This document shows, one piece after another, positions 4,892-37,378 of a DNA stretch of 64,000 nucleotides. The stretch is from Candidatus Yanofskybacteria bacterium CG10_big_fil_rev_8_21_14_0_10_36_16 (GTDB lineage: Bacteria; Patescibacteriota; Minisyncoccia; 2-02-FULL-40-12; IGHO2-01-FULL-4-A): assembly GCA_002794035.1 (NCBI GenBank), contig PCXQ01000007.1, positions 1,785-65,784 of the forward strand, in the 5' to 3' direction. The stretch's first letter is position 1. Each line of letters starts with the position of its first letter. The translations under genes and the position numbers were made by a program. Under the pieces are notes generated by a model, which saw only the letters and a program-made list of their open reading frames with translations, was not told the origin of the DNA and ran no database searches.

Positions 4892-4979
4892 ACTAAAAAA
4901 ACCCTTGTATGCAAAGGTCTTAATATTTCCACCACGGGGGCAAAATAGTTCAAATCCTATCTTAAAATATCACAAACAC

Positions 4980-5064
4980 GGTGGGGGCGAGAGGATTTGA
5001 ACCTCCACGCTCGTGAGAGCACCAGCTCCTAAGGCTGGCGTGTCTGCCATTCCACCACACCCCC
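4980..5064 (-). tRNA. tRNA-Leu (anticodon UAG), long variable arm
   Basis: Reverse complement folds as GGGGGTG/CGCCCCC acceptor stem, anticodon loop CUUAGGA, long variable arm and GGTTCAAATCC T-loop; discriminator A plus CC. Confidence 0.85.
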
Positions 5065-13494: not shown

Positions 13495-13530
13495 AAAACC
13501 CCGCCCTTGCTAGCAAGGGCGGGGTTAATT
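13495..13530. terminator. rho-independent terminator (bidirectional)
   Basis: aaaaaCCCCGCCCTTGCtaGCAAGGGCGGGGtt perfect hairpin. Confidence 0.65.
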
Positions 13531-20434: not shown

Positions 20435-21520
20435 TCAGCTGGCGGCACCCGTCTTGCGGAGCACCTTGCCGCTGGATCCCTGGACCTTTAAGGTCTTGGA
20501 CTTTTTGTTCGGTTTGGGAGCATCGGCTCCCGCACCTTGTTGGCGGCGCCCCTTCAGTTGGGACACCACCGTGACGTCGCCCTCCACCGATTCGTCTTCC
20601 TCGGCCCGTTGAAAGGCCATGGAAATCGCACCGATGGAACCCGGGTGGCAGGATGCCACGCGATCGTCTCCGATCAGCGACCCGTTTTGGACCGCTTCTC
20701 GTGCCGATTCCAGGTCATACCCGGCTTCGGTAAGCTCATTGGCGGTCCGCTCGTGGAGCGACACGCCGTTCCAATTGACCAAGGTCGGCTTGGGCCGGCC
20801 TTGCCAGTTTCGCTGGCGATCCTGACGATCGTTGTTTCCGCCGAAGCCGGTCGGGCGACCGCGATGATCACTGCTGTTCGGATTCCTCTGGCTCTGGGGC
20901 AAGTTTCTTGAGATCTGCTTGCGCAAATCTCCAAGTTTCCACTTGCCGGCGAGCTCTGGCCCTTCCGCCTTCTTGTTCGCATAGGTTCCCCAGCGGATGT
21001 TGAACAGATCACGGCAGCCCTCGCATGCCGTGAACATGAAGAGATCGCTCGGCTTTTCGTTGCCGAACGCCTCTTGGGTCAGGGTTTCCGCCCTGTCCAT
21101 GATCTCGTCCTTCCCGTCGACGCCTTCGACTAGCTTCTCCAAGGTCTTCGCCTTGAATAAGTAGAAGTTACCGCCGACAACGATGGCCTCGCCGTCATCG
21201 CTCTCTCGAGTGATTACACGCGGCTGGAACATTTGGTCGCAGACGGTGCAAGACCGTTGCGGACCGTCAGGCTCGTAGCCGGTGAACAGGCTCATGCCCT
21301 CCAACAGAACCCCCTCGAGGTCGGCCCGGGTCCACAGCCGATTCTCCTTCTGGAGATCGGCGTTGTGGCCACGCATCCGGCCGGGGTCGAACGGCTTACG
21401 CCGAACGTTCATCTTGAGAAGGTTGAATGCCTCCTCTGTGCAGGAGAGATTTACTTCGATCTTATCCCCCTGCTCGGTATAGGCGCGGAACTGAAAGTCC
21501 CGCCGTTCTTCTTGTGCCAT
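20435..21520 (-). CDS. hypothetical protein A encoded in a high-GC (about 60%) islet; two CxxC pairs, basic C-terminal tail
   Basis: Long ORF on the minus strand in a sharply GC-rich segment (about 20395-21620). Several shorter overlapping ORFs in other frames occur in the same segment. CTVC and CEGC motifs and a KPNKKSKTLK tail. No recognisable family. Confidence 0.5.
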   Translation of the reverse strand: MAQEERRDFQFRAYTEQGDKIEVNLSCTEEAFNLLKMNVRRKPFDPGRMRGHNADLQKENRLWTRADLEGVLLEGMSLFTGYEPDGPQRSCTVCDQMFQPRVITRESDDGEAIVVGGNFYLFKAKTLEKLVEGVDGKDEIMDRAETLTQEAFGNEKPSDLFMFTACEGCRDLFNIRWGTYANKKAEGPELAGKWKLGDLRKQISRNLPQSQRNPNSSDHRGRPTGFGGNNDRQDRQRNWQGRPKPTLVNWNGVSLHERTANELTEAGYDLESAREAVQNGSLIGDDRVASCHPGSIGAISMAFQRAEEDESVEGDVTVVSQLKGRRQQGAGADAPKPNKKSKTLKVQGSSGKVLRKTGAAS

Positions 21521-21871
21521 CGTGGCACCTCCTTTAAAGTAACGGGTTGAACCGCCAAAATACCCCTGAACTCAACAGAGGAACTGGCGTTTTGAACACG
21601 ATTAATGATTGATTCAACAATCAGAAACGTAGCCAAAATACCAGCTCCTCTAAAACATATTTAATATTTTAAAAGTCCTGTATCTTTCCTATCTTTATCA
21701 GTATATAATCATTATAACAAATTGACATGTTTTGTCAACCCCGCTCTTGAAATAATTCGGAGTTTTGAGCTAGACCCTTAAAAACCCTTATAAATAGCCG
21801 TTATGTGGGCCTTAAATAATAAAAAGGCCCGCCTGCTTAATTTAATAACACAGGCGGGTTATTAGCCATTC

Positions 21872-23254
21872 CTAGAAACTAATTATATTACCATTTGAAG
21901 GCTTTATAATGCTCCCCAAAAAACCATTTGATAAAATAAGTTTTTCAAGGCCTTCTCGGCCATTTTTTTCTCCATGATTTAATATCACTCGTTTGGGGTT
22001 CAGGTTTTTAACAAAACCAGAGAGCTGGAGACCGTCTGCGTGACTGGTAAGTTCAAATTTCTCAACACGGGCTGAGAGATTGATTTCGTCACCATACACA
22101 TTAACAATTCCTCCGTTTTGACTGGCATGAAAGATTTCATAACCCTCAGTTAGAGGTGCCTGGTATCCGGTAATTCCGAGCATGTTTCTAGTTCTTTCAA
22201 GGAAACGGCCGGATGTTAAGTGGGCTTGAGCGCAACTTCCTCTAACCATCATGCCTGCAGTTGTAACCACTGCAAGAGGATTAGGATTTCCTGAAGATAA
22301 AATCTCCATTCTTTGAGCTCTGTTATAAATTTTAAGCAAATCAATTTCTCCCGAGTTCAAATCAATCCCAGAAGAATGATCTAAATTAGACCAATACCCA
22401 AACTTACTGGCATATACATCGAACATGGTCACACACATGCCATCAATAAAAGGCTTTAATCCTCTACTTAACAAAGCCAGAAAAACATCCGGGCCTCGTC
22501 CGACACCAAAAGCTGGGAATACGGCTTTGCCGTTTCCATTCATAACATCCGATGCAATACGTGCCAATCTGTCTTCTTCAGGATAGCGCTCTACAATGGA
22601 GCGATCTCCATAAGTTGACTCAATAAATAGGTGATCAACCCTGCCGACAAATTCTTCAGGCATTTCCATGCCCCTAACTGTCGGGGTGTCATAAAAAGAC
22701 ATATCTCCTGAAAAACAGGTTATTGTTTCTCCAACTTTAAGGAATATCATCGCTGAACCGCGAATGTGACCGTTTGGCCAATAAAAAGCATCCACACCTG
22801 GAAACAAATTAATCCATCCCGGTTTTTCAATCTTTGTTATTTTCTCACATGCCTTTGCTGCAGCATCTGAAAAAATCAGGGATTCTCTAACACCTTCATT
22901 TTGTTCTTTGATGTATGAGGTGTTAAGCCATAACTGCATCGCAATAGCCGAAGTTGGAACCGTCATATAAATTGACGCTTCGGGATTTTCTTTTAAAACA
23001 TAGGGAATGTTGCCAGTATGGTCAGAGTGAGCATGAGTAATTAATACAGCATGCACAATATAATCTGGCATAATATGGCCCTCTGAATAACTAAACCTCT
23101 CGCCATAATCATCTAAACCGGTTCTTGTCTTAACTCCGGAATCAATTAAAATGTTTCTATTGTTTCCAAGGTCATCCTTTACTCTAACAAGAGTGGCTGA
23201 TGCACCTACTTCATCAAATCCTCCAAGACATTCAAAAGCCTTAATTTCGGCCAT
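21872..23254 (-). CDS. beta-CASP family MBL-fold ribonuclease/hydrolase
   Basis: LITHAHSDHTG (MBL motif 2), ESTYG, LTSHAD and LNHGE motifs in beta-CASP order. AT-rich codon usage like the rest of the window. Confidence 0.7.
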   Translation of the reverse strand: MAEIKAFECLGGFDEVGASATLVRVKDDLGNNRNILIDSGVKTRTGLDDYGERFSYSEGHIMPDYIVHAVLITHAHSDHTGNIPYVLKENPEASIYMTVPTSAIAMQLWLNTSYIKEQNEGVRESLIFSDAAAKACEKITKIEKPGWINLFPGVDAFYWPNGHIRGSAMIFLKVGETITCFSGDMSFYDTPTVRGMEMPEEFVGRVDHLFIESTYGDRSIVERYPEEDRLARIASDVMNGNGKAVFPAFGVGRGPDVFLALLSRGLKPFIDGMCVTMFDVYASKFGYWSNLDHSSGIDLNSGEIDLLKIYNRAQRMEILSSGNPNPLAVVTTAGMMVRGSCAQAHLTSGRFLERTRNMLGITGYQAPLTEGYEIFHASQNGGIVNVYGDEINLSARVEKFELTSHADGLQLSGFVKNLNPKRVILNHGEKNGREGLEKLILSNGFLGSIIKPSNGNIISF

Positions 23255-23380: not shown

Positions 23381-24340
23381 TTAGCCGGCCATTAGAACCG
23401 GCTCATCATCGGGGGATTCTTCGTCATCCCCCTCTTCGGGAGCTCCCGGGGTCGGGATCAGATTTTGGTCCGACGCCGGCCGCCAGTCTACTGAGGTCGA
23501 AGATTTCTCAACCCCGTTTAAGATCACGTAGTTTGCGAACGTAGCCGGGACTTCCAACCCGTTCGCATAAACCCAGTCGATGGCCTTGTAGATGTCCGTG
23601 GCCTCGTCTTCGGAAATCGGCACAAGGAGCCATGGTGGGACCCACATGCCGTGCTGGAACGTGCCCTCATCCGGATTGAACTCGTCGGTCCGGAATTCTT
23701 CTTCCTTGTGGTATCCATCTTGGTCATACCACTCATAGAAGACCGAGTACGCATGGGTGAACTGGACATACGTCCACGCCCGCTCCTCAGCATACCTCCA
23801 GTAGGGCTGAGGCTGGACCAACTTACAACACCGTCCGTCGGGGTAGAACTCCCGCGCCGCCTCGAAAGGCAACACGACCTTCAGCCAGACTTCCTGTTCA
23901 AGCTCGGGTTCCGAGTCAGGCTGACCCGGAATGGCTCTCCGTTCCACAGGAAGTTCCTCGAGGAAAGGCAATTGACTTAGCCACTCCTCGGGGGTGAGGG
24001 TCAGGTGGAATCCGTTTTGATGACCGTTCCGAGAACTCGGATCGGACATCTTGAACTTCCTCCACTGAATCGATCGCGCGGTCACGGTGATCAGGTCCGG
24101 GACTTCGCCCGGATCGAACACCAAGCCCTGCTTCGATTCTCCTTCGCCAACGAATACCGTAACGGATCCGTCGGCATGGCGCTTTTCCACCACGTCCCCA
24201 TCAGGGGTCATGATGGTCCGGCACTCTCGTTCCTCTCCTCCCTGAGTCGTCCAACGACGGACGACTTCCTTGAAAGCGGGTTTTGTTTCAGAGGCCGCTT
24301 TACCCTCTGTTTCCTTGGTCATTCTTTTCTCCTTCACCAA
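23381..24340 (-). CDS. hypothetical protein B encoded in a second high-GC (about 58-60%) islet; acidic C-terminus
   Basis: Long ORF on the minus strand. The GC-rich segment (about 23345-24360) is bounded by AT-rich intergenic DNA. No recognisable motifs. Confidence 0.5.
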   Translation of the reverse strand: MVKEKRMTKETEGKAASETKPAFKEVVRRWTTQGGEERECRTIMTPDGDVVEKRHADGSVTVFVGEGESKQGLVFDPGEVPDLITVTARSIQWRKFKMSDPSSRNGHQNGFHLTLTPEEWLSQLPFLEELPVERRAIPGQPDSEPELEQEVWLKVVLPFEAAREFYPDGRCCKLVQPQPYWRYAEERAWTYVQFTHAYSVFYEWYDQDGYHKEEEFRTDEFNPDEGTFQHGMWVPPWLLVPISEDEATDIYKAIDWVYANGLEVPATFANYVILNGVEKSSTSVDWRPASDQNLIPTPGAPEEGDDEESPDDEPVLMAG

Positions 24341-26366: not shown

Positions 26367-26441
26367 GTGGGCGCACTAGGACTCGAACCTAGGACCTTCT
26401 GTGTGTAAAACAGACGCTCTAACCAACTGAGCTATGCGCCC
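26367..26441 (-). tRNA. tRNA-Val (anticodon UAC)
   Basis: Reverse complement folds as GGGCGCA/TGCGCCC acceptor stem, D-arm GCTCAGTTGGTTAGAGC, anticodon loop UUUACAC and T-loop GGTTCGAGTCC. Confidence 0.85.
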
Positions 26442-26477
26442 CTTAAACGTTTTTATAACCAACAAAACCAAGCCTTG

Positions 26478-26551
26478 TGGGCATGGGTGGACTCGAACCA
26501 CCGACCCCGGCTTTATAAGAGCCGTGCTCTAACCAGCTGAGCTACATGCCC
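26478..26551 (-). tRNA. tRNA-Ile (anticodon UAU)
   Basis: Reverse complement folds as GGGCATG/CATGCCC acceptor stem, anticodon stem CGGCT/AGCCG with loop CUUAUAA (U33-UAU-A37), and T-loop GGTTCGAGTCC. Confidence 0.7.
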
Positions 26552-26669
26552 CTCGTTTAGTACATATTCTATTATTTTAAAACAAAATAGTCAATTTTTT
26601 GTCTTTTAATTTTAAAAATTCGAACCTATGTGTTACTATTGTAGTAGAAATAACTCATTCTTATTTATA

Positions 26670-27356
26670 ATGCACAAGAAAGATAAAGAAAAAACAAGAG
26701 CCAGACAACTAAGAAGCCGCGGGGGTTCTATCAAAGAGATTGCTAGAAAATTAAGTGTTTCTCAAAGCAGTGTGAGTACATGGGTCAGAGATATAAACTT
26801 AACCCAAAACCAAATAAATTTTTTAAAACACAAAGGACATTTAAAAGAAGTTATTAAAAAAAGAATTCAGACAAGATTAAAAAATGAAAAAAATAAAAGA
26901 AGAAACATAATCAATAATCACAAAACCCTATTCCCCAATTACAAAACAACTAACGATAACCTCTTAATAATAGGAACTGTACTTTATTGGGCAGAAGGAA
27001 CTAAAAGCGACAAAAGTCGTATGTTTAAATTTTCCAACAGCGATCCCCACATGATAAAGATCATGATAAATTTCTTAAAAAAAATATGTAGAATTCCCAA
27101 AAATAGACTCAGAGGACATATTCATTTACACCCTCATTTGAATAATAAGGTTGCAGAAAAATATTGGTCAAAGGTATCTAAAATACCCTTAGATCAATTT
27201 TACAAAACCAGTCAATCTTTAAACAAGCGCAGCAAAAACATCAAAGATAAATTACCATATGGAACATTTAATATTGAAATTTGCTCTGTTGATTTATATC
27301 TTAAAATGTTAGCTTGGATAGAAGCACTGAAAGAAAAGACACTGCAAGAAACTTAA
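26670..27356 (+). CDS. HTH-domain protein, tRNA-adjacent paralog 1 (possible LAGLIDADG-like or homing-endonuclease-like C-terminal domain)
   Basis: N-terminal HTH (SIKEIARKLSVSQSSVSTWVRD). C-terminal domain shares LYWxEGxKS, FxNSDPxM, FLKKI..PK and WIE blocks with the ORF at 35525-36193. Start set at MHKKDKEK by alignment to the paralog. Confidence 0.5.
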   Translation: MHKKDKEKTRARQLRSRGGSIKEIARKLSVSQSSVSTWVRDINLTQNQINFLKHKGHLKEVIKKRIQTRLKNEKNKRRNIINNHKTLFPNYKTTNDNLLIIGTVLYWAEGTKSDKSRMFKFSNSDPHMIKIMINFLKKICRIPKNRLRGHIHLHPHLNNKVAEKYWSKVSKIPLDQFYKTSQSLNKRSKNIKDKLPYGTFNIEICSVDLYLKMLAWIEALKEKTLQET

Positions 27357-27422
27357 CATTTACTTGACTTTTTTAAAATATCATTATAATATAGGAACAG
27401 CTCCAAAGGAGGTGCAGAAAAA

Positions 27423-28361
27423 ATGTCTCACACGCACTTTCAAAATCATAAAAGTACCTTACAATTGCAAATTGAAGCTATATGGGAATTGCTTAATAAT
27501 GACGCTAATGCAAGATCTAACCCAGTACAAGCATCCCGAACCTGTCTTGCTAATCAATTTGGACTAGCACCACAATCGGCATACCAAAAGTCCCTAAAAA
27601 TTATTAAACTTTTGGATGAAAAAGGTAAAATTGAAATTTGTTATAGAAGAGGCAAGGGCCGACCGATTGATTCAGTCGAAATTAAATACAAAGGTGTTTT
27701 AAATTCTGCTGAGTTAATTAACTCCGTTACTATCCCGAATAGTAAAGAGAAAAGGATAACCCAAGCAGTGCAAGATGAGATTTCAGAAATCAAACGCCAA
27801 CTTTCTGTATTAACCTCACAAACTCCTCATAACAGTGCACCCCCTGCTCTACCAGTACAAGAAAAGCCAACTGTTAGAAATGTAGCTGTGTGGATAGACA
27901 CGCCCAACATATCAAAAACGTGCCGTAGCTGTAATATCGAACCTCCATATAGAAAAATAATTGATACCATCAGAGAAAATCTTGGTGATATAGTAATCGT
28001 GGGTGCGTTTTGTAACCAAAATGCTCCAGAAGGTCTGTTAAAAATGTTCAAAACTTTCGACTTTGTCATAATTAATTGCGTAAGCCCGAAATCCGAATTT
28101 ATACAAGGATATGATCCTGTTGATCAAGAAATGGACAGGGTCGCCAGAATGCTGGCAGATGTTGCAAGTTCGCATGTGATTATATCCGGGGATAGAGATT
28201 TTAATCCATTGGCTTCATTTTTGAGAACCAAAGGTAAAACTGTCGGAAGAATGTATGTTGATCAAGAATCTCAAGTTATGAAATTGAGGATCAACGGCAC
28301 AATAATCACAATAGGATGCAAATTTAAGCCTGCCCCTGCCGGGCACGCTATTGCCTATTAA
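27423..28361 (+). CDS. NYN/LabA-like (PIN-fold) nuclease-domain protein
   Basis: C-terminal VAVWIDTPNI...IVIVGAF...DFVIINCV...VIISGDRDFNPLASFLRTKGKTV matches the NYN/LabA signature (..IDG.N...SGDSDF.PL...LR..G..V). Confidence 0.6.
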   Translation: MSHTHFQNHKSTLQLQIEAIWELLNNDANARSNPVQASRTCLANQFGLAPQSAYQKSLKIIKLLDEKGKIEICYRRGKGRPIDSVEIKYKGVLNSAELINSVTIPNSKEKRITQAVQDEISEIKRQLSVLTSQTPHNSAPPALPVQEKPTVRNVAVWIDTPNISKTCRSCNIEPPYRKIIDTIRENLGDIVIVGAFCNQNAPEGLLKMFKTFDFVIINCVSPKSEFIQGYDPVDQEMDRVARMLADVASSHVIISGDRDFNPLASFLRTKGKTVGRMYVDQESQVMKLRINGTIITIGCKFKPAPAGHAIAY

Positions 28362-29242: not shown

Positions 29243-29285
29243 GCCCCCGCCCAGGCGAATTGCTGGGCGGGGCATTTATTTTATC
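29243..29285 (+). terminator. rho-independent terminator
   Basis: CCCCGCCCAGgcgaattgCTGGGCGGGG followed by a T-rich tract. Confidence 0.6.
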
Positions 29286-29365
29286 AATTTTAGCCAAAAA
29301 AATTTGCAAAAAATAAAGTTTTGTATTATTATTCCCAAATAAGATACTAGGGAAAATATTCAATT

Positions 29366-29926
29366 ATGGATGCTGTTCAAATATACAATTTAACTCAAAA
29401 ATTAAAAGAATTGCCTGAAATCAGGCCCGGTTTTACTGTTCGAGTACATCAAAGAATAAAAGAAGGAGAGAAATCAAGAATACAGGTTTTTGAAGGATTG
29501 GTTATCGCCAGAAAACACGGCAAGGGTGTAAATAGCACCATAACAGTAAGAAAAACAGCAAGTGGCGTAGGGGTTGAAAGAATATTTCCTCTCCACTCTC
29601 CAGTTATTGAAAAATTTGAAGTTATTAAAATTGCAAAAACTCGCAGAGCAAAACTTTATTATATCCGTGAAAAAGCAGCAAAAGAAATACGAAAGAAAAT
29701 GAAAACATCTCAATTTCAAGACAAACTAAAAGAAATACAAGAACAACAAAATGAGACTGAAAATACCAACTTATCCGCAGAGCAAAATCCTGAAACCGAA
29801 GAAAAAGAAACCATAAAAACAGAAGAGGTTCAACAAGAACCAGAAACAAAAGAAACACCTTCTCAAAAATCGGAAGAAGATAAATCCGACACGTCTTCAA
29901 AGGAGCAGCCACAAGAAAAAAAGTAA
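29366..29926 (+). CDS. rplS: 50S ribosomal protein L19 with KE-rich C-terminal extension
   Basis: [60 protein letters not shown] is the L19 core. It is followed by a low-complexity E/K-rich tail of about 70 aa. Confidence 0.9.
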
Positions 29927-29995
29927 TGCGGACGTGGCGGAACCGGTATACGCGCTACCTTGAGGTGGTAGTGGGAGCAATCCCGTGGAGGTTCA

Positions 29996-30126
29996 CCCCG
30001 CACTTGAAAAGTTGTATATCCTAGGGCACGTGGCGGAACCGGTATACGCGCTACCTTGAGGTGGTAGTGGGAGCAATCCCGTGGAGGTTCAAATCCTCTC
30101 GTGCCCACAACCTTTCAAGTGCGGGG
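29996..30126 (+). other. intervening sequence in the tRNA-Leu T-loop: 14-bp closing stem enclosing a complete tRNA-Leu(GAG)
   Basis: Stem arms at 29996-30009 and 30113-30126 are exact reverse complements. A TTCA direct repeat lies at both junctions. tRNA-B sits between the arms. Confidence 0.6.
30024..30107 (+). tRNA. tRNA-Leu (anticodon GAG), complete copy nested inside the interrupted tRNA-Leu
   Basis: GGGCACG/CGTGCCC acceptor stem. Its body (positions 8-60) is identical to the outer tRNA: anticodon loop UUGAGGU, long variable arm, T-arm GGAGGTTCAAATCCTCT. No encoded CCA. Confidence 0.8.
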
Positions 30127-30373
30127 TTCAAATCCTCTCGTCCGCACCAGTAAGGAAATTGCAAGTTTTGAAGATTCGCCTCGCTTCGCTCGGCGGTCAA
30201 AACGTATTGCATTTTGGGCTCAAAAAGGAATTCAAGATTTAGTTTGAGAGTAAGATTTTGACCAACAAACAGCAGAAATGCTGATTTTTAATTTACAATA
30301 TTTTTCTATTGTTTTTAAGGCGTTTAAATGCTAATATCGTTTTAAGTTCCAACATCGGACAAGGAGGTTAGAA

Positions 30374-31873: not shown

Positions 31874-31947
31874 TAGGGCCTGTAGCTCAGCTGGTTAGAG
31901 CGCATCGTTGACATCGATGAGGTCAGCCGTTCGAGTCGGCTCAGGCC
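31874..31947 (+). tRNA. tRNA-Val (anticodon GAC)
   Basis: GGGCCTG/CAGGCCC acceptor stem, anticodon stem CATCG/CGATG with loop UUGACAU, T-loop GTTCGAGTC. Confidence 0.85.
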
Positions 31948-32075
31948 CACACTTAAATAATAAAAACAGCCCCGCCTTAGCAGGGTTTTTTAAATTCTTG
32001 TATTTTTAATTATTTCATGCTTTAATTACCACGAATTTTGTTATTTATCAAGTTCTTTAACAAGGAGATAGCCCA

Positions 32076-35275: not shown

Positions 35276-35294
35276 GTGGGGATTTATTTAGCAG

Positions 35295-35368
35295 TGCCGC
35301 GGGTCAGATTCGAACTGACGACACAAGGCTCTTCAGGCCTCTGCTCTAACCAACTGAGCTACCGCGGC
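35295..35368 (-). tRNA. tRNA-Phe (anticodon GAA)
   Basis: Reverse complement folds as GCCGCGG/CCGCGGC acceptor stem, anticodon stem GAGGC/GCCTT with loop CUGAAGA, T-loop GTTCGAATC. Confidence 0.85.
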
Positions 35369-35524
35369 ATAAACACATATTAACATTTTAGGGTTAAATT
35401 TCAATACTTTTGGGCTTTTATTGTAAACCCATCAAAGTTATCAACAGAGTTATCTACAAAACCTGAACCCCTTTGTTATAATTAACATATATACTGTAAT
35501 ACCAACCAAATCACTTATCAACAA

Positions 35525-36193
35525 ATGCGAAAAGACAAAGAAATAGCCTTTCAATTAAGGCGTTCTGGTAAAAGTTACAAACAAATAAGCTTTGAACTTG
35601 GAGTACCACCAAGCACTCTTTCAAATTGGTTCAAAAATGAACCTTGGTCTACAGAAATAAGAGACAGTCTGGCATCCACTGAATCACTCGCCTACCCCGA
35701 AAAACTAAAAAGAGTAGTTTCTGCAATCAAAAACAAACATGCTAAACTTAATGAATTTTATAAAAAAGAAGCTTCTGTTGAATTTACAGAACTTAAAAAA
35801 AATCCTCTTTTTATGGCAGGCATAATGCTCTATTGGAGTGAAGGAGGTAAATCAACAAAAAACAGTGTATTGCGTTTTACCAACAGTGATCCTGACATGG
35901 TAAGATTATATTGTCTTTTTTTAAAAAAAATATTAAAGCTACCCAAACATAAAATAGCTACAAGATTGCTTTTATACCCTGACTCAACTGACGAACCACA
36001 AAAAAGATTCTGGAGTAGGATTATTGACATGCCCTTAGAAAATTTTAGAAAATCTATTTATATAAAGGGCAAACAGCCAAAAAACAGAAAATCTTATGGT
36101 GTTTGCAGTGTTGAAGTTTATAACCGAAAACTCATTGAAAAAATGCTAAAATGGATTGAGTTAAGTAGACAACACTTATTAAATAAATTATAA
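35525..36193 (+). CDS. HTH-domain protein, tRNA-adjacent paralog 2 (possible LAGLIDADG-like or homing-endonuclease-like C-terminal domain)
   Basis: Paralog of 26670-27356 (shared LYWSEGGKS, FTNSDPDM, FLKKILKLPK, KMLKWIE blocks). 157 nt from the divergent tRNA-Phe; its stop is 12 nt before tRNA-Gly. Confidence 0.5.
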   Translation: MRKDKEIAFQLRRSGKSYKQISFELGVPPSTLSNWFKNEPWSTEIRDSLASTESLAYPEKLKRVVSAIKNKHAKLNEFYKKEASVEFTELKKNPLFMAGIMLYWSEGGKSTKNSVLRFTNSDPDMVRLYCLFLKKILKLPKHKIATRLLLYPDSTDEPQKRFWSRIIDMPLENFRKSIYIKGKQPKNRKSYGVCSVEVYNRKLIEKMLKWIELSRQHLLNKL

Positions 36194-36204
36194 TCAACCT
36201 TATT

Positions 36205-36275
36205 GCGGGTATGGTATAGTGGTATTACGCGACCTTGCCAAGGTCGAGAGAGGGGTTCAATTCCCCTTACCCGCT
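36205..36275 (+). tRNA. tRNA-Gly (anticodon GCC)
   Basis: GCGGGTA/TACCCGC acceptor stem, anticodon stem CGACC/GGTCG with loop UUGCCAA, T-loop GGGGTTCAATTCCCC, discriminator U. Confidence 0.85.
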
Positions 36276-36335
36276 CATAGAAATTTAAATTTGCATTTCA
36301 TGATTTGGTGTTGAAATCATGATTTGTGTTAAAAA

Positions 36336-37228: not shown

Positions 37229-37350
37229 ACACAACAATTTCGTGCATATATTATTTTGTACATCTATTTTTATTTAACCCCGCCCTTGAAAACCATAGTT
37301 AAAAATAAAAATACCAAAATAATACAAGAGAATATTTTTCAAGGGCGGGA

Positions 37351-37378
37351 TTGACTTTTTATGTCAGTTTGCTATAAT
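37351..37378 (+). promoter_or_regulatory. near-consensus sigma70-type promoter (TTGACT-16-TATAAT)
   Basis: TTGACT at 37351-37356, a 16-nt spacer, TATAAT at 37373-37378. Immediately downstream of a 13-bp inverted repeat (37277-37349) and upstream of the 3D-domain gene. Confidence 0.5.

What the first reader, a model, noticed from the sequence alone, without database searches (positions are those of the whole stretch)
29928..30149. Nested tRNA: tRNA-Leu(GAG) whose T-loop is split by a stem-closed insert carrying a second complete tRNA-Leu(GAG)
The 5' portion (29928-29995: acceptor GCGGACG, D-arm, anticodon loop UUGAGGU, long variable arm, T-stem GGAGG, TTCA) and the 3' portion (30127-30149: TTCAAATCCTCTCGTCCGCACCA) together form a perfect tRNA-Leu with encoded CCA. 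The 3' acceptor strand CGTCCGC is exactly complementary to the 5' GCGGACG. They are separated by 131 nt bounded by a perfect 14-bp inverted repeat (CCCCGCACTTGAAA / TTTCAAGTGCGGGG) and a TTCA direct repeat. Inside sits an intact second tRNA-Leu(GAG) (30024-30107) that is identical in body but has a different acceptor stem (GGGCACG/CGTGCCC). The flanking complementary arms resemble the leader/trailer pairing that joins split tRNA halves in Nanoarchaeum and the processing stems of archaeal non-canonical (T-loop) tRNA introns. No equivalent has been described in bacteria. If the pre-RNA is processed by RNase P/Z at the inner tRNA, the outer halves would be released as a trans-annealable split tRNA. 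Alternatives are a hairpin-type mobile insertion or a duplication relic leaving a tRNA pseudogene.
Basis: seen in the sequence. Interest (0 to 1): 0.85.

Follow-up and report, generated by a model that had tools for sequence, protein, structure and literature searches.

The report
tRNA gene interrupted by another tRNA
In one uncultured groundwater bacterium, the leucine tRNA gene that normally follows ribosomal protein L19 is cut in its T-loop by a 131-base hairpin-bounded insert carrying a second, intact copy of the same tRNA; this is most likely a gene-replacement scar, not a working split tRNA.

Summary
The outer tRNA-Leu(GAG) is split into 29928-29995 and 30127-30149. The 131-nt insert (29996-30126) has 14-bp perfect arms (21 nt at 95%) and a TTCA repeat. 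It carries an intact tRNA-Leu(GAG) at 30024-30107. The two copies differ only by two flipped acceptor pairs.

Independent assemblies confirm the left end up to 29991 and the right side from 30048. Positions 29992-30047 rest on the window assembly alone.

The organism is a Patescibacteria (CPR) bacterium, Ca. Yanofskybacteria from Crystal Geyser. About 40 relatives keep one uninterrupted tRNA-Leu(GAG) after rplS. The nearest lineage has exactly the outer acceptor stem, CCA and 3' flank, so the outer gene is the ancestral resident. The inner copy is 83/84 identical to a tRNA-Leu type found at another locus in other CPR lineages.

There is no bulge-helix-bulge motif, no intron family match, and no integrase, transposase, EndA, RtcB or RNase III in the window. 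Both nearest lineages carry debris of older tRNA-Leu copies at this same locus.

Best reading: recurrent tRNA gene replacement. The inner tRNA works, and the outer halves are leader and trailer. A functional fragmented tRNA is not excluded (about 0.1).

The parts
29366..29926 (+). rplS (ribosomal protein L19, with a long E/K/Q-rich C-terminal tail). It is the conserved upstream neighbour and the probable source of the transcript that carries the tRNA region.
   Evidence: Pfam Ribosomal_L19, E = 3.5e-38. A promoter-like site lies at 29304-29332, after a terminator-like hairpin at 29245-29272. An rplS-then-tRNA-Leu(GAG) arrangement is seen in about 40 relatives.
29928..29995 (+). 5' part of the resident ('outer') tRNA-Leu(GAG): acceptor GCGGACG, D arm, anticodon arm, long variable arm, T-stem 5' strand and TTCA.
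   Evidence: Sequence. 64 nt are identical to the inner tRNA. The acceptor is identical to the uninterrupted orthologue in the nearest lineage, L153-L156. Rfam gives only 16 bits.
29995..30015 (+). Left arm of the inverted repeat (ACCCCGCACTTGAAAAGTTGT).
   Evidence: the repeat finder I1/I8: 21 nt, 95% complementary. The 14-nt core is exact.
30016..30023 (+). Unpaired 8-nt leader (ATATCCTA) directly before the inner tRNA. Inferred RNase P substrate leader.
   Evidence: MFE structure.
30024..30107 (+). Intact 'inner' tRNA-Leu(GAG): acceptor GGGCACG/CGTGCCC, discriminator A, no encoded CCA. This is the functional gene.
   Evidence: ARAGORN. Rfam 54.2 bits. 83/84 identical to the tRNA-Leu(GAG) of locus L137. 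The other 8 tRNAs in the window also lack an encoded CCA.
30107..30127 (+). Right arm of the inverted repeat (ACAACCTTTCAAGTGCGGGGT). It overlaps the inner discriminator base and the first T of the outer T-loop.
   Evidence: Reproduced in the independent JGI contig L146.
30127..30149 (+). 3' part of the resident ('outer') tRNA-Leu(GAG): full T-loop TTCAAAT, T-stem 3' strand, acceptor CGTCCGC, A, and an encoded CCA.
   Evidence: Sequence. It is identical, including CCA and the following GTA, to the 3' end of the orthologue in L153-L156. Reproduced in L146.
37276..37352 (.). A second hairpin with nearly the same arms (AACCCCGCCCTTGAAAA / TTTTCAAGGGCGGGATT) around a 43-nt AT-rich loop. It is either the same repeat family or only the same terminator style.
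   Evidence: The motif gave 5 matches against 0.33 expected; two of the five are the tRNA arms themselves.

Best explanation
This is a gene-replacement scar. The ancestral tRNA-Leu(GAG) gene lies directly after rplS. It has acceptor GCGGACG and an encoded CCA.

A single insertion cut this gene inside its T-loop. The inserted DNA is 131 nt long and ends in inverted repeats. It sits between two copies of (GG)TTCA. It carries a complete tRNA-Leu(GAG) of another acceptor type (GGGCACG, no CCA).

The inner tRNA is the working gene. It is transcribed with rplS. RNase P would cut it out at the 8-nt single-stranded leader, and a 3' nuclease plus the CCA-adding enzyme would finish it.

The two halves of the old gene are now only its long leader and trailer. 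They pair with each other, which gives the nested-cloverleaf picture, but they are most likely discarded.

What is shown:
- the anatomy;
- that the outer gene is the orthologue;
- that the inner gene is a separately known type;
- that the arrangement is confined to one lineage;
- that the same locus has been overwritten before in sister lineages.

What is inferred:
- the processing route;
- the non-function of the outer halves;
- the way the DNA got in.

For the insertion route I rank two options about equally. One is a recombinase or transposase acting in trans on the inverted arms, with TTCA as the crossover or target duplication. The other is repair of a break in the T-loop by copying a patch from another tRNA-Leu locus, joined at GGTTCA microhomology.

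The 64/64 identity of the two bodies includes a D-loop C (AACCGG). That base is absent from every other tRNA-Leu sequence I inspected with this otherwise identical body, which have AACTGG. This is best explained by a very recent event or by gene conversion between the copies. Conversion would leave only the ends, the acceptor pairs, different.
For: (1) Orthology of the outer gene.
- RluD-rplS-tRNA-Leu(GAG) is conserved in 18 of 23 genome loci. It is also present in about 18 metagenome loci and in L151 and L153-L156. In every case there is one uninterrupted tRNA.
- The nearest lineage (75% L19 identity, four assemblies) has GCGGACG...CGTCCGCACCA-gta. That is identical to the outer ends.

(2) The inner type exists as an ordinary single-copy gene.
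- L137 is 83/84 identical to it. L098 and L115 are close. All sit in an IF2-RbfA-NrnA-tRNA-Leu-RNase HII context.

(3) Signature of one insertion.
- 21-nt arms at 95% complementarity, with a (GG)TTCA repeat at both junctions.

(4) Only the inner copy scores as a tRNA.

(5) The locus has been overwritten before.
- L153-L156 carry a D-arm fragment of a different tRNA-Leu type between rplS and the intact gene. It is 20/23 identical, and 0 of 2000 shuffles reach its score.
- L151 carries a 5' fragment that ends in the anticodon loop (25/31 identical, 0 of 2000 shuffles). A LAGLIDADG endonuclease gene follows, and then an intact tRNA-Leu(GAG).

(6) Partial tRNA copies next to intact tRNAs are common in this material.
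- They occur at about 9 of 342 tRNAs. They include T-loop-to-3'-end repeats in L040, L056 and L110.

(7) The DNA immediately downstream is lineage-specific.
- The next gene has no homologue among 5.8 billion proteins.
- The ancestral Leu-Val-Phe-Gly tRNA cluster is broken up here.

(8) No splicing machinery or motif was found.
Against: - Nothing here shows directly that the outer halves are non-functional. They remain perfect: 7/7 acceptor pairs, 5/5 T-stem pairs, a complete T-loop on the 3' piece and an encoded CCA.
- After removal of the inner tRNA the two pieces would stay annealed. The predicted energy is -68.5 kcal/mol.
- The two acceptor stems differ by exactly two compensated pairs and nothing else. 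That would also be expected if cross-pairing between the copies had to be avoided.
- No integrase, transposase or homing endonuclease lies in or beside the insert.
- No second copy of the cassette and no donor locus was found. The only similar arms, at 37276-37352, have no target duplication and an unrelated interior.
- No empty-site allele was seen.
- Only 64 kb of the genome could be examined.
Confidence: 0.65

Rival explanations
1. A functional fragmented tRNA, by analogy with rRNA intervening sequences. The 15+5 bp stem would be cut by RNase III, and the inner tRNA released by RNase P and RNase Z. The two outer pieces would stay base-paired through the acceptor stem, the T stem and the stem remnant. 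They would act, nicked or religated, as a second tRNA-Leu(GAG).
For: - The nested fold is the MFE and the centroid, with z = -5.5.
- The outer halves cofold at -68.5 kcal/mol into a cloverleaf plus stem.
- The outer sequence is undamaged and keeps its CCA, the only encoded CCA among the 10 tRNA 3' ends in the window.
- The acceptor stems differ in a way that prevents cross-pairing.
- A stem of about 20 bp at the tip of a conserved hairpin loop is how rRNA IVS elements are built and excised by RNase III (PMC4990558).
- CPR bacteria are rich in insertions at the tips of rRNA stem-loops (PMC11270868).
Against: - It is seen in one species. About 40 relatives, including the nearest lineage, have the uninterrupted gene, so there is no evidence of selection for the arrangement.
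- A redundant intact tRNA with the same anticodon sits inside, so nothing requires the outer one.
- From established knowledge: the T-loop/D-loop elbow is contacted by RNase P and the ribosome, and tertiary structure contributes to bacterial LeuRS recognition. A helix emerging from the elbow would probably be disruptive.
- No RNase III or RtcB gene lies in the 64 kb. This is weak evidence, because the rest of the genome is unseen.
Confidence: 0.1
2. A self-compensating mobile mini-cassette. The unit is about 135 bp: inverted arms plus a tRNA. A recombinase or transposase mobilises it in trans. It targets the T-loop of its cognate tRNA gene and supplies the replacement copy, so it cannot be lost once inserted.
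For: - Terminal inverted repeats of 21 nt and a 4-nt direct repeat (TTCA) at the two ends.
- If the ends are joined, they form GTGCGGGG-TTCA-CCCCGCAC. This palindrome mimics a T arm (GGAGG-TTCAAAT-CCTCT), the kind of symmetric core used by T-loop-targeting integrases (PMC1762012).
- Similar arms occur elsewhere in the window: 37276-37352, and a half-site at 21739.
Against: - No second copy carrying a tRNA was found.
- The other hairpin has no target duplication and an unrelated interior.
- The arms are of the same CCCCGC...GCGGGG style as this genome's ordinary terminators, so the similarity may be compositional.
- No recombinase lies in the window.
- The motif is absent from 148 other loci, from phages and plasmids, and from viral contigs.
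- The two bodies share a D-loop base seen in no other tRNA-Leu inspected. That fits a local origin or later gene conversion.
Confidence: 0.2
3. A local duplication relic. A tandem array of tRNA-Leu genes, each followed by a palindrome, was reduced by two microhomology (GGTTCA) deletions. No foreign DNA entered.
For: - The insert is a circular permutation of a 'tRNA + 19-bp hairpin with a TTCA loop' unit.
- Two other tRNAs in the window, Val(TAC) and Lys, are followed directly by roughly 40-nt palindromes.
- GGTTCA is present at all the breakpoints this scenario needs.
Against: - It needs three gene copies and two independent deletions.
- It needs the first and third copies to be of one acceptor type and the middle copy of another.
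- No relative shows a tandem tRNA-Leu(GAG) array at this locus.
- The hypothetical palindrome has its G-rich arm first. Every palindrome actually seen in this genome has the opposite order.
Confidence: 0.1
4. An assembly artefact, caused by three near-identical tRNA-Leu bodies in the community: outer, inner, and that of a co-occurring organism with 47% GC.
For: - Contigs from two other assemblies break inside the repeat.
- Contig L105, from the same sample, shares 60 nt with the inner tRNA and then diverges.
- Positions 29992-30047 were seen only in the window's assembly.
Against: - The right half, including the unusual junction GCGGGG|TTCAAATCC, is reproduced by an independent JGI contig that continues into the downstream gene.
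- The left arm is complementary to that verified right arm, with one mismatch. No misjoin or fold-back would create that.
- The inner 5' end joins the GGGCACG acceptor to this genome's own D-loop variant, not to that of the 47% GC organism.
- The Logan k=31 contig ends exactly at the first 31-mer lying inside the repeat. This implies two different left contexts for this genome-specific 31-mer in a separate read set.
Confidence: 0.04

Closest known systems
Integrative elements that target the T-loop of tRNA genes (for example mycobacteriophage Ms6 at tRNA-Ala, PMC1762012), and the partial tRNA repeats they leave behind
   Same: - The break lies in the T-loop.
- A direct repeat of the T-loop-to-3' segment is present: 17 nt, GGTTCAAATCCTCTCGT.
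- Symmetric arms flank a short crossover-like core.
- Comparable T-loop-to-3'-end repeats occur in L040, L056 and L110.
   Different: - The insert is 131 nt and has no integrase.
- It does not rebuild the resident tRNA with a substitute 3' end. It brings a whole tRNA and leaves both halves of the old gene as fragments.
- The shared identity block at the junction is only 4-6 nt.
Archaeal non-canonical tRNA introns, and the split and permuted tRNAs of Nanoarchaeum, Caldivirga and Cyanidioschyzon (PMC3218864, PMC4033280, PMC3978253)
   Same: - A tRNA coding sequence is interrupted outside the anticodon loop.
- Complementary flanks would bring the two halves together.
- A functional RNA sits inside the interrupting sequence, as archaeal pre-tRNA-Trp introns carry a C/D box RNA (from my own knowledge).
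   Different: - The host is bacterial.
- There is no bulge-helix-bulge at the junctions.
- No EndA or RtcB was seen.
- The halves are not separate transcription units.
- A redundant intact copy is present.
- The arrangement is not conserved in any relative.
Intervening sequences of bacterial 23S rRNA, removed by RNase III without religation (for example Coxiella, PMC4990558), and insertions in CPR rRNA genes (PMC11270868)
   Same: - An extended stem of about 20 bp is inserted at the tip of a conserved hairpin loop of a structural RNA.
- The host phylum is known for such insertions.
- It offers a plausible route to a fragmented but still paired RNA.
   Different: - The host molecule is a tRNA, where the loop concerned forms the functional elbow.
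- The cargo is another tRNA.
- There is no evidence of cleavage, or that the fragments function.
Group I introns in bacterial tRNA genes, including those of Patescibacteria (PMC13011429)
   Same: An interrupted tRNA gene in the same phylum that standard tRNA finders miss.
   Different: - Those introns lie in the anticodon loop (33/34 to 36/37), are longer than 200 nt and self-splice.
- Here there is no Rfam intron match, and the 131 nt are almost fully accounted for by a tRNA plus a stem.
Miniature inverted-repeat transposable elements (MITEs)
   Same: Small size, terminal inverted repeats, a short direct repeat at the insertion site, and no coding capacity.
   Different: - No family of copies could be shown.
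- The arms look like this genome's ordinary terminator stems.
- To my knowledge, a complete tRNA gene as cargo is not a described MITE feature in bacteria.
Free-standing LAGLIDADG homing endonuclease next to a tRNA gene (seen here in L150-L152)
   Same: It sits at the same locus in a sister lineage: rplS, then a 5' fragment of an old tRNA-Leu(GAG), then inserted DNA, then an intact tRNA-Leu(GAG).
   Different: - The window's insert has no endonuclease gene.
- The break is in the T-loop, not the anticodon loop.
- The old 3' part is also retained.

Membership tests
Archaeal/eukaryal protein-spliced tRNA intron (BHB type) | Bulge-helix-bulge (or relaxed HBh') motif at both exon-intron junctions | tested here: not met
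   In the MFE and centroid structures, the T stem is followed by a 3-nt / 6-nt internal loop and then an uninterrupted 15-bp helix. There are no two 3-nt bulges separated by 4 bp.
Archaeal/eukaryal protein-spliced tRNA intron (BHB type) | The host encodes a splicing endonuclease (EndA) and an RtcB-type ligase | tested here: inconclusive
   None was found among about 48 ORFs of the 64-kb window scanned with Pfam. The rest of the genome could not be reached. The host is bacterial (FtsH, DnaA/DnaN, L19, NusA).
Split tRNA (Nanoarchaeum type) | Halves encoded at separate loci and joined in trans through complementary leader and trailer sequences | tested here: not met
   Both halves lie 131 nt apart on one strand, behind one gene. 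Complementary arms are present, but within a single transcript.
Self-splicing group I / group II intron in a tRNA | Match to the intron RNA families, and a size compatible with a ribozyme core | tested here: not met
   Rfam finds only tRNA hits, at the gathering threshold and at E <= 10. Of the 131 nt, 84 are a tRNA and about 40 are a stem.
tRNA-targeting integrative element (tyrosine integrase island or prophage) | Insertion within the 3' part of a tRNA gene, with a direct repeat of the tRNA segment at the far end | tested here: met
   The break lies in the T-loop. GGTTCAAATCCTCTCGT is repeated at 30086-30102 and 30125-30141, and (GG)TTCA is present at both junctions.
tRNA-targeting integrative element (tyrosine integrase island or prophage) | An integrase gene, and kilobases of cargo, between the repeats | tested here: not met
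   The insert is 131 nt with no ORF. There are no integrase or recombinase domains anywhere in the window.
MITE | Terminal inverted repeats plus a target-site duplication | tested here: met
   Arms of 21 nt at 95% complementarity, with TTCA on both sides.
MITE | Multiple related copies in the genome | tested here: inconclusive
   One further hairpin with near-identical arms lies at 37276-37352, and a half-site at 21739. They have no duplication and unrelated interiors. The arms resemble ordinary terminators. Only 64 kb were available.
RNase III-excised intervening sequence (rRNA IVS type) | An extended double-stranded stem replacing the tip of a conserved hairpin loop | tested here: met
   A 15+5 bp stem emerges from the T-loop.
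RNase III-excised intervening sequence (rRNA IVS type) | Cleavage in vivo, with the fragments retained in a functional molecule | not testable with these tools
   This needs RNA data from the organism.
Integron cassette (attC) | Imperfect palindrome with RYYYAAC / GTTRRRY core sites, and an IntI integrase | tested here: not met
   The junction reads G|TTCAAA, so a C stands where the core needs a purine. No integrase is in the window.
Canonical bacterial tRNA-Leu gene (the inner copy) | Full cloverleaf with a long variable arm, A73 and GAG anticodon, scoring above the family threshold | tested here: met
   ARAGORN calls it. Rfam gives 54.2 bits against a threshold of 29. It is 83/84 identical to a single-copy gene in another lineage.

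The most novel reading that the evidence does not exclude
The nested precursor is used. The long stem is cleaved (RNase III-like), and the inner tRNA is released. The two outer pieces persist as a base-paired, nicked or religated tRNA-Leu(GAG). This would be the first fragmented or split tRNA in Bacteria, and the first tRNA counterpart of an rRNA intervening sequence.

A related but less radical reading is that the 135-bp unit is a mobile, self-compensating tRNA cassette. It would disrupt its cognate gene and make itself indispensable (about 0.2).
Probability: 0.1. Interest if true: 0.85.

Novelty: new variant of a known kind. Interest (0 to 1): 0.45.

Why it matters
tRNA genes are classic landing sites for mobile DNA. 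Normally the incoming element restores the gene with a substitute 3' end. Here the resident gene is cut in two, and a complete replacement tRNA sits in the gap, held in a hairpin.

Together with the debris of older copies in the two nearest lineages, this suggests that an essential single-copy tRNA gene is repeatedly overwritten, not repaired, in these very small genomes. That bears on three things:
- how tRNA sets turn over in CPR bacteria;
- annotation, because the outer gene is invisible to tRNA finders while the 64-nt repeat breaks assemblies;
- whether bacteria ever tolerate fragmented tRNAs, as they tolerate fragmented rRNAs.

If the outer halves turned out to function, split tRNAs would no longer be confined to archaea and a few eukaryotes.

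Tried and rejected
- **Bulge-helix-bulge or archaeal splicing.** Rejected on the fold and on host identity.
- **Group I or II intron, or another known RNA in the insert.** Rfam gives no hit, even at E <= 10.
- **Fold-back or misassembly artefact.** Largely rejected. An attempt to recover further contigs through the 81-aa antisense ORF found nothing.
- **Tandem tRNA-Leu pair in relatives.** Not found in about 40 syntenic loci.
- **Closer relatives.** None exists in the protein collection. The best L19 match is 75% identical, and the downstream gene is an orphan.
- **Same architecture elsewhere.**
  - 119 metagenome contigs with the same variable-arm and T-arm sequence each hold one copy.
  - Phage and plasmid collections give only ordinary single tRNA-Leu hits.
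  - Viral contigs have neither the junction nor the hypothetical joined palindrome.
  - The arm motif is absent from 148 other loci.
- **Recombinase, endonuclease or ligase genes nearby.** None. ORF 26628-27356 has only weak HTH hits and is unrelated to the LAGLIDADG protein of L151.
- **Contig L105 (same sample) as the donor locus in the same genome.** Rejected. It is 100% identical to L098, has 47% GC, and carries a different D-loop.
- **A decayed 5' tRNA fragment in L151 matching L151's own tRNA.** Not significant. The fragment is significant against another tRNA-Leu(GAG) type.
- **Integron attC core.** Does not fit.
Full report
**1. What is in the sequence**

- 29928-29995 is a tRNA-Leu(GAG) from acceptor GCGGACG through the T-stem 5' strand and TTCA.
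- 30127-30149 is TTCAAATCCTCTCGTCCGCACCA. This is the full T-loop, the T-stem 3' strand, the exactly complementary acceptor strand, A73 and an encoded CCA.
- Between them lie 131 nt, bounded by CCCCGCACTTGAAA and its exact complement. The complementarity extends to 21 nt at 95%.
- Inside is a complete tRNA-Leu(GAG) at 30024-30107. It is the only copy called by ARAGORN and by Rfam, at 54.2 bits. Rfam gives the outer 5' part 16 bits.

The two copies share an exact 64-nt block and an exact 17-nt block. They differ only at pairs 2-71 and 4-69, which are flipped on both strands.

The 222 nt fold as two nested cloverleaves joined by a 15+5 bp stem. The energy is -104.3 kcal/mol, z = -5.5, and 0 of 200 shuffles fold as well.

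**2. Is the structure real?**

Three other assemblies of the same organism exist.
- One JGI contig ends at 29991. Another starts at 30048 and reproduces the inner 3' end, the right arm, the outer 3' fragment and the downstream gene at 100% identity.
- A Logan k=31 contig ends at 29961. That is the last position before the first 31-mer lying wholly inside the 64-nt repeat.
- The repeat carries a D-loop variant that I saw only in this genome. So two different left contexts exist in an independent read set.
- The left arm differs from the exact reverse complement of the verified right arm by one base, which argues against a fold-back chimera.
- A third, near-identical tRNA body in the same sample (L105 = L098, 47% GC) explains the contig breaks. 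It has a different D-loop and a different 3' flank.

I put the artefact explanation at about 4%. Positions 29992-30047 rest on the window's assembly alone.

**3. Host and locus**

The window is core chromosome of a Patescibacteria (CPR) bacterium. It carries LeuRS, GyrA, FtsH, NusA, trigger factor, RuvABC and DnaA/DnaN. The L19 protein is recorded as Candidatus Yanofskybacteria bacterium CG10_big_fil_rev, from Crystal Geyser.

A tRNA-Leu(GAG) after rplS, usually with RluD upstream, is widely conserved:
- 18 of 23 species-representative loci;
- about 18 further metagenome loci;
- the two nearest lineages.

All of these have one uninterrupted tRNA.

The nearest lineage has 75% L19 identity and is represented by four assemblies. 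Its tRNA reads GCGGACG...CGTCCGCACCA followed by gta. That is exactly the outer acceptor, CCA and first flanking bases. The outer gene is therefore the ancestral resident, and its interruption is specific to this lineage.

No closer relative exists among 5.8 billion proteins. The gene immediately downstream is an orphan.

**4. The inner copy**

The GGGCACG/CGTGCCC acceptor, the AAT T-loop and the absence of CCA match a tRNA-Leu(GAG) type that is a normal single gene in other CPR lineages. L137 is 83/84 identical, and L098 and L115 are close. There it lies in an IF2-RbfA-NrnA-tRNA-RNase HII-tRNA-Ser context.

Both window copies share a D-loop C (AACCGG). Every other tRNA-Leu sequence I inspected with this otherwise identical body has AACTGG. 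So the two bodies have either only just diverged or are homogenised by gene conversion. Conversion would naturally spare the acceptor positions, which lie at the very ends of the homology blocks.

**5. Anatomy of the insert**

Inverted arms plus a (GG)TTCA repeat at both junctions are the signature of a single insertion.
- If the two ends are joined, they give GTGCGGGG-TTCA-CCCCGCAC. This palindrome mimics a T arm.
- The permuted unit folds as a tRNA followed by a 19-bp hairpin.
- T-loop-targeting integrases use such symmetric cores (PMC1762012).

Against a mobile family:
- The arms have the same CCCCGC...GCGGGG style as this genome's ordinary terminators at 13497, 26326, 29245, 42657 and 63091.
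- The one hairpin with near-identical arms (37276-37352) has no target duplication and an unrelated interior.
- No recombinase is nearby.

The route of insertion therefore stays open. Either a recombinase or transposase acted in trans, or a T-loop break was repaired with a copied patch joined at GGTTCA microhomology.

**6. RNA level**

- The junction is a 3 x 6 internal loop on a continuous helix, not a bulge-helix-bulge.
- No intron family matches.
- Known bacterial tRNA introns are group I or II elements in the anticodon loop, with one in the D-loop (PMC13011429).

The following steps are inferred.
- The region is transcribed with rplS. A promoter-like site lies at 29304-29332.
- RNase P cuts after the 8-nt unpaired leader.
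- The 3' end is trimmed and CCA is added, as must happen for the other eight CCA-less tRNAs in the window.
- The outer halves remain as a stable paired by-product, predicted at -68.5 kcal/mol.

Whether that by-product is degraded, or used as an RNase III-processed fragmented tRNA in the manner of rRNA intervening sequences (PMC4990558, PMC11270868), cannot be decided here. The redundancy of the inner copy, the lack of conservation and the position at the functional elbow argue against use.

**7. The locus has been overwritten before**

- In L153-L156, a D-arm fragment of a different tRNA-Leu type lies between rplS and the intact gene. It is 20/23 identical, and 0 of 2000 shuffles reach its score.
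- In L150-L152, a 5' fragment ends in the anticodon loop (25/31 identical, 0 of 2000 shuffles). It is followed by a LAGLIDADG endonuclease gene (Pfam E = 2.9e-10) and then an intact tRNA-Leu(GAG).
- Among 342 tRNAs in the roughly 1 Mb collected, about nine have partial copies nearby. Only the window shows fragments on both sides of an intact copy.
- The window's tRNA-Leu(TAG) also has tRNA debris next to it.
- The ancestral Leu-Val-Phe-Gly cluster is broken up by lineage-specific genes.

**8. Verdict**

The best explanation, at about 0.65, is a replacement scar: a resident tRNA gene disrupted in its T-loop by a hairpin-bounded insert that carries the working copy.

A self-compensating mobile tRNA cassette is possible (about 0.2).

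It is a new variant of a known kind, namely insertion at a tRNA T-loop with partial duplication. It is unusual in three ways: its topology, its cargo, and the perfect preservation of the old gene. I found nothing like it in the literature searched or in the sequence collections scanned.

**9. Limits**

- Only 64 kb of the genome could be read.
- No RNA data and no read-level data were available.

Noticed in passing
window 4925-5064 (minus strand): Two tRNA-derived pieces follow tRNA-Leu(TAG) (4980-5064, minus strand), starting 18 nt downstream. One is an inverted copy of its own T-loop and T-stem (GTTCAAATCCTATC at 4948-4961; 13/14 identical, 0 of 2000 shuffles). The other is a direct D-arm-like piece (GTGGTGGAA; borderline, 44 of 2000 shuffles). 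The inverted piece could pair with the tRNA's own T arm. The LeuRS gene lies just upstream, at 168-2132.
   Followed up: partly
window 37276-37352; also 21738-21752 and 13497-13526: The motif AACCCCGC-N-CTTG(AAAA) recurs. It forms a hairpin with a 43-nt AT-rich loop directly before a perfect TTGACT-16-TATAAT promoter (37276-37352). It also appears as a lone half-site (21739) and as a loop-less 30-nt palindrome after gyrA (13497). These could be a repeat family or simply this genome's terminator style.
   Followed up: partly
window 20435-21520 (-) and 23381-24340 (-): Two ORFs have 57-62% GC in a 35% GC genome. They have no Pfam match, and their sequences are not low-complexity. They flank an RNA-metabolising metallo-beta-lactamase gene (21872-23254). 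They are probably recently acquired foreign genes.
   Followed up: partly
window, all 9 called tRNAs: None of the nine intact tRNA genes encodes CCA. Each has C (or CC for Leu-TAG) after the discriminator base. The only full CCA is on the orphaned outer 3' fragment.
   Followed up: partly
window 26367-26551, 31876-31950, 35294-36276, compared with L002, L004, L013, L015: The ancestral order is FtsH - Ile(TAT) - Val(GAC) ... RluD - rplS - Leu(GAG) - Val(TAC) - Phe - Gly. It is rearranged here. Val(TAC) and Ile(TAT) are inverted next to FtsH, Val(GAC) has moved downstream of Leu(GAG), and orphan genes lie between the tRNAs. This points to recombination at or between tRNA genes.
   Followed up: no
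L150-L152 (L151 735-1546): In the lineage with the closest L19 match (72% identity), a two-motif LAGLIDADG endonuclease gene sits between rplS and tRNA-Leu(GAG). Its last ~35 nt overlap the tRNA. A 5' fragment of an older tRNA-Leu(GAG), ending at the anticodon loop, lies upstream of it.
   Followed up: partly
L153-L156 (L153 743-765): The nearest lineage with the same acceptor stem as the outer tRNA carries a 23-nt D-arm fragment of another tRNA-Leu type between rplS and the intact tRNA.
   Followed up: partly
L005 5469-5640, L020 370-520, L046 3153-3490, L135 6282-6560, L040, L056, L110: Other loci also show partial tRNA copies beside intact genes:
- 3' halves of tRNA-Ile(TAT) starting at the anticodon loop. 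In L020 the copy has a different acceptor strand.
- A tRNA-Leu(CAG) 5' fragment interrupted by a 19-nt palindrome.
- A tRNA-Glu copy with an insert of about 170 nt at the anticodon loop, next to an intact tRNA-Glu.
- T-loop-to-3'-end repeats 94-200 nt downstream of tRNA-Leu genes.

No Rfam intron hit was found in any of them.
   Followed up: partly
window 26477-26551 and loci L002, L004, L005, L013, L015, L020: A tRNA-Ile with anticodon TAT is present here and in many relatives. It suggests AUA is read by a UAU anticodon and not by a lysidine-modified CAU tRNA.
   Followed up: no
window 29366-29926: L19 carries a C-terminal extension of about 70 residues, rich in E, K and Q, that relatives (113-158 aa) lack. 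The outer tRNA starts one base after its stop codon.
   Followed up: no
window 26628-28361: Two genes lie between the tRNA pair and RluD. One is a 242-aa protein with only weak HTH matches, with distant homologues near rplS in L145 and in L090. The other is a NYN-domain (putative RNase) protein. Neither is part of the conserved neighbourhood.
   Followed up: partly
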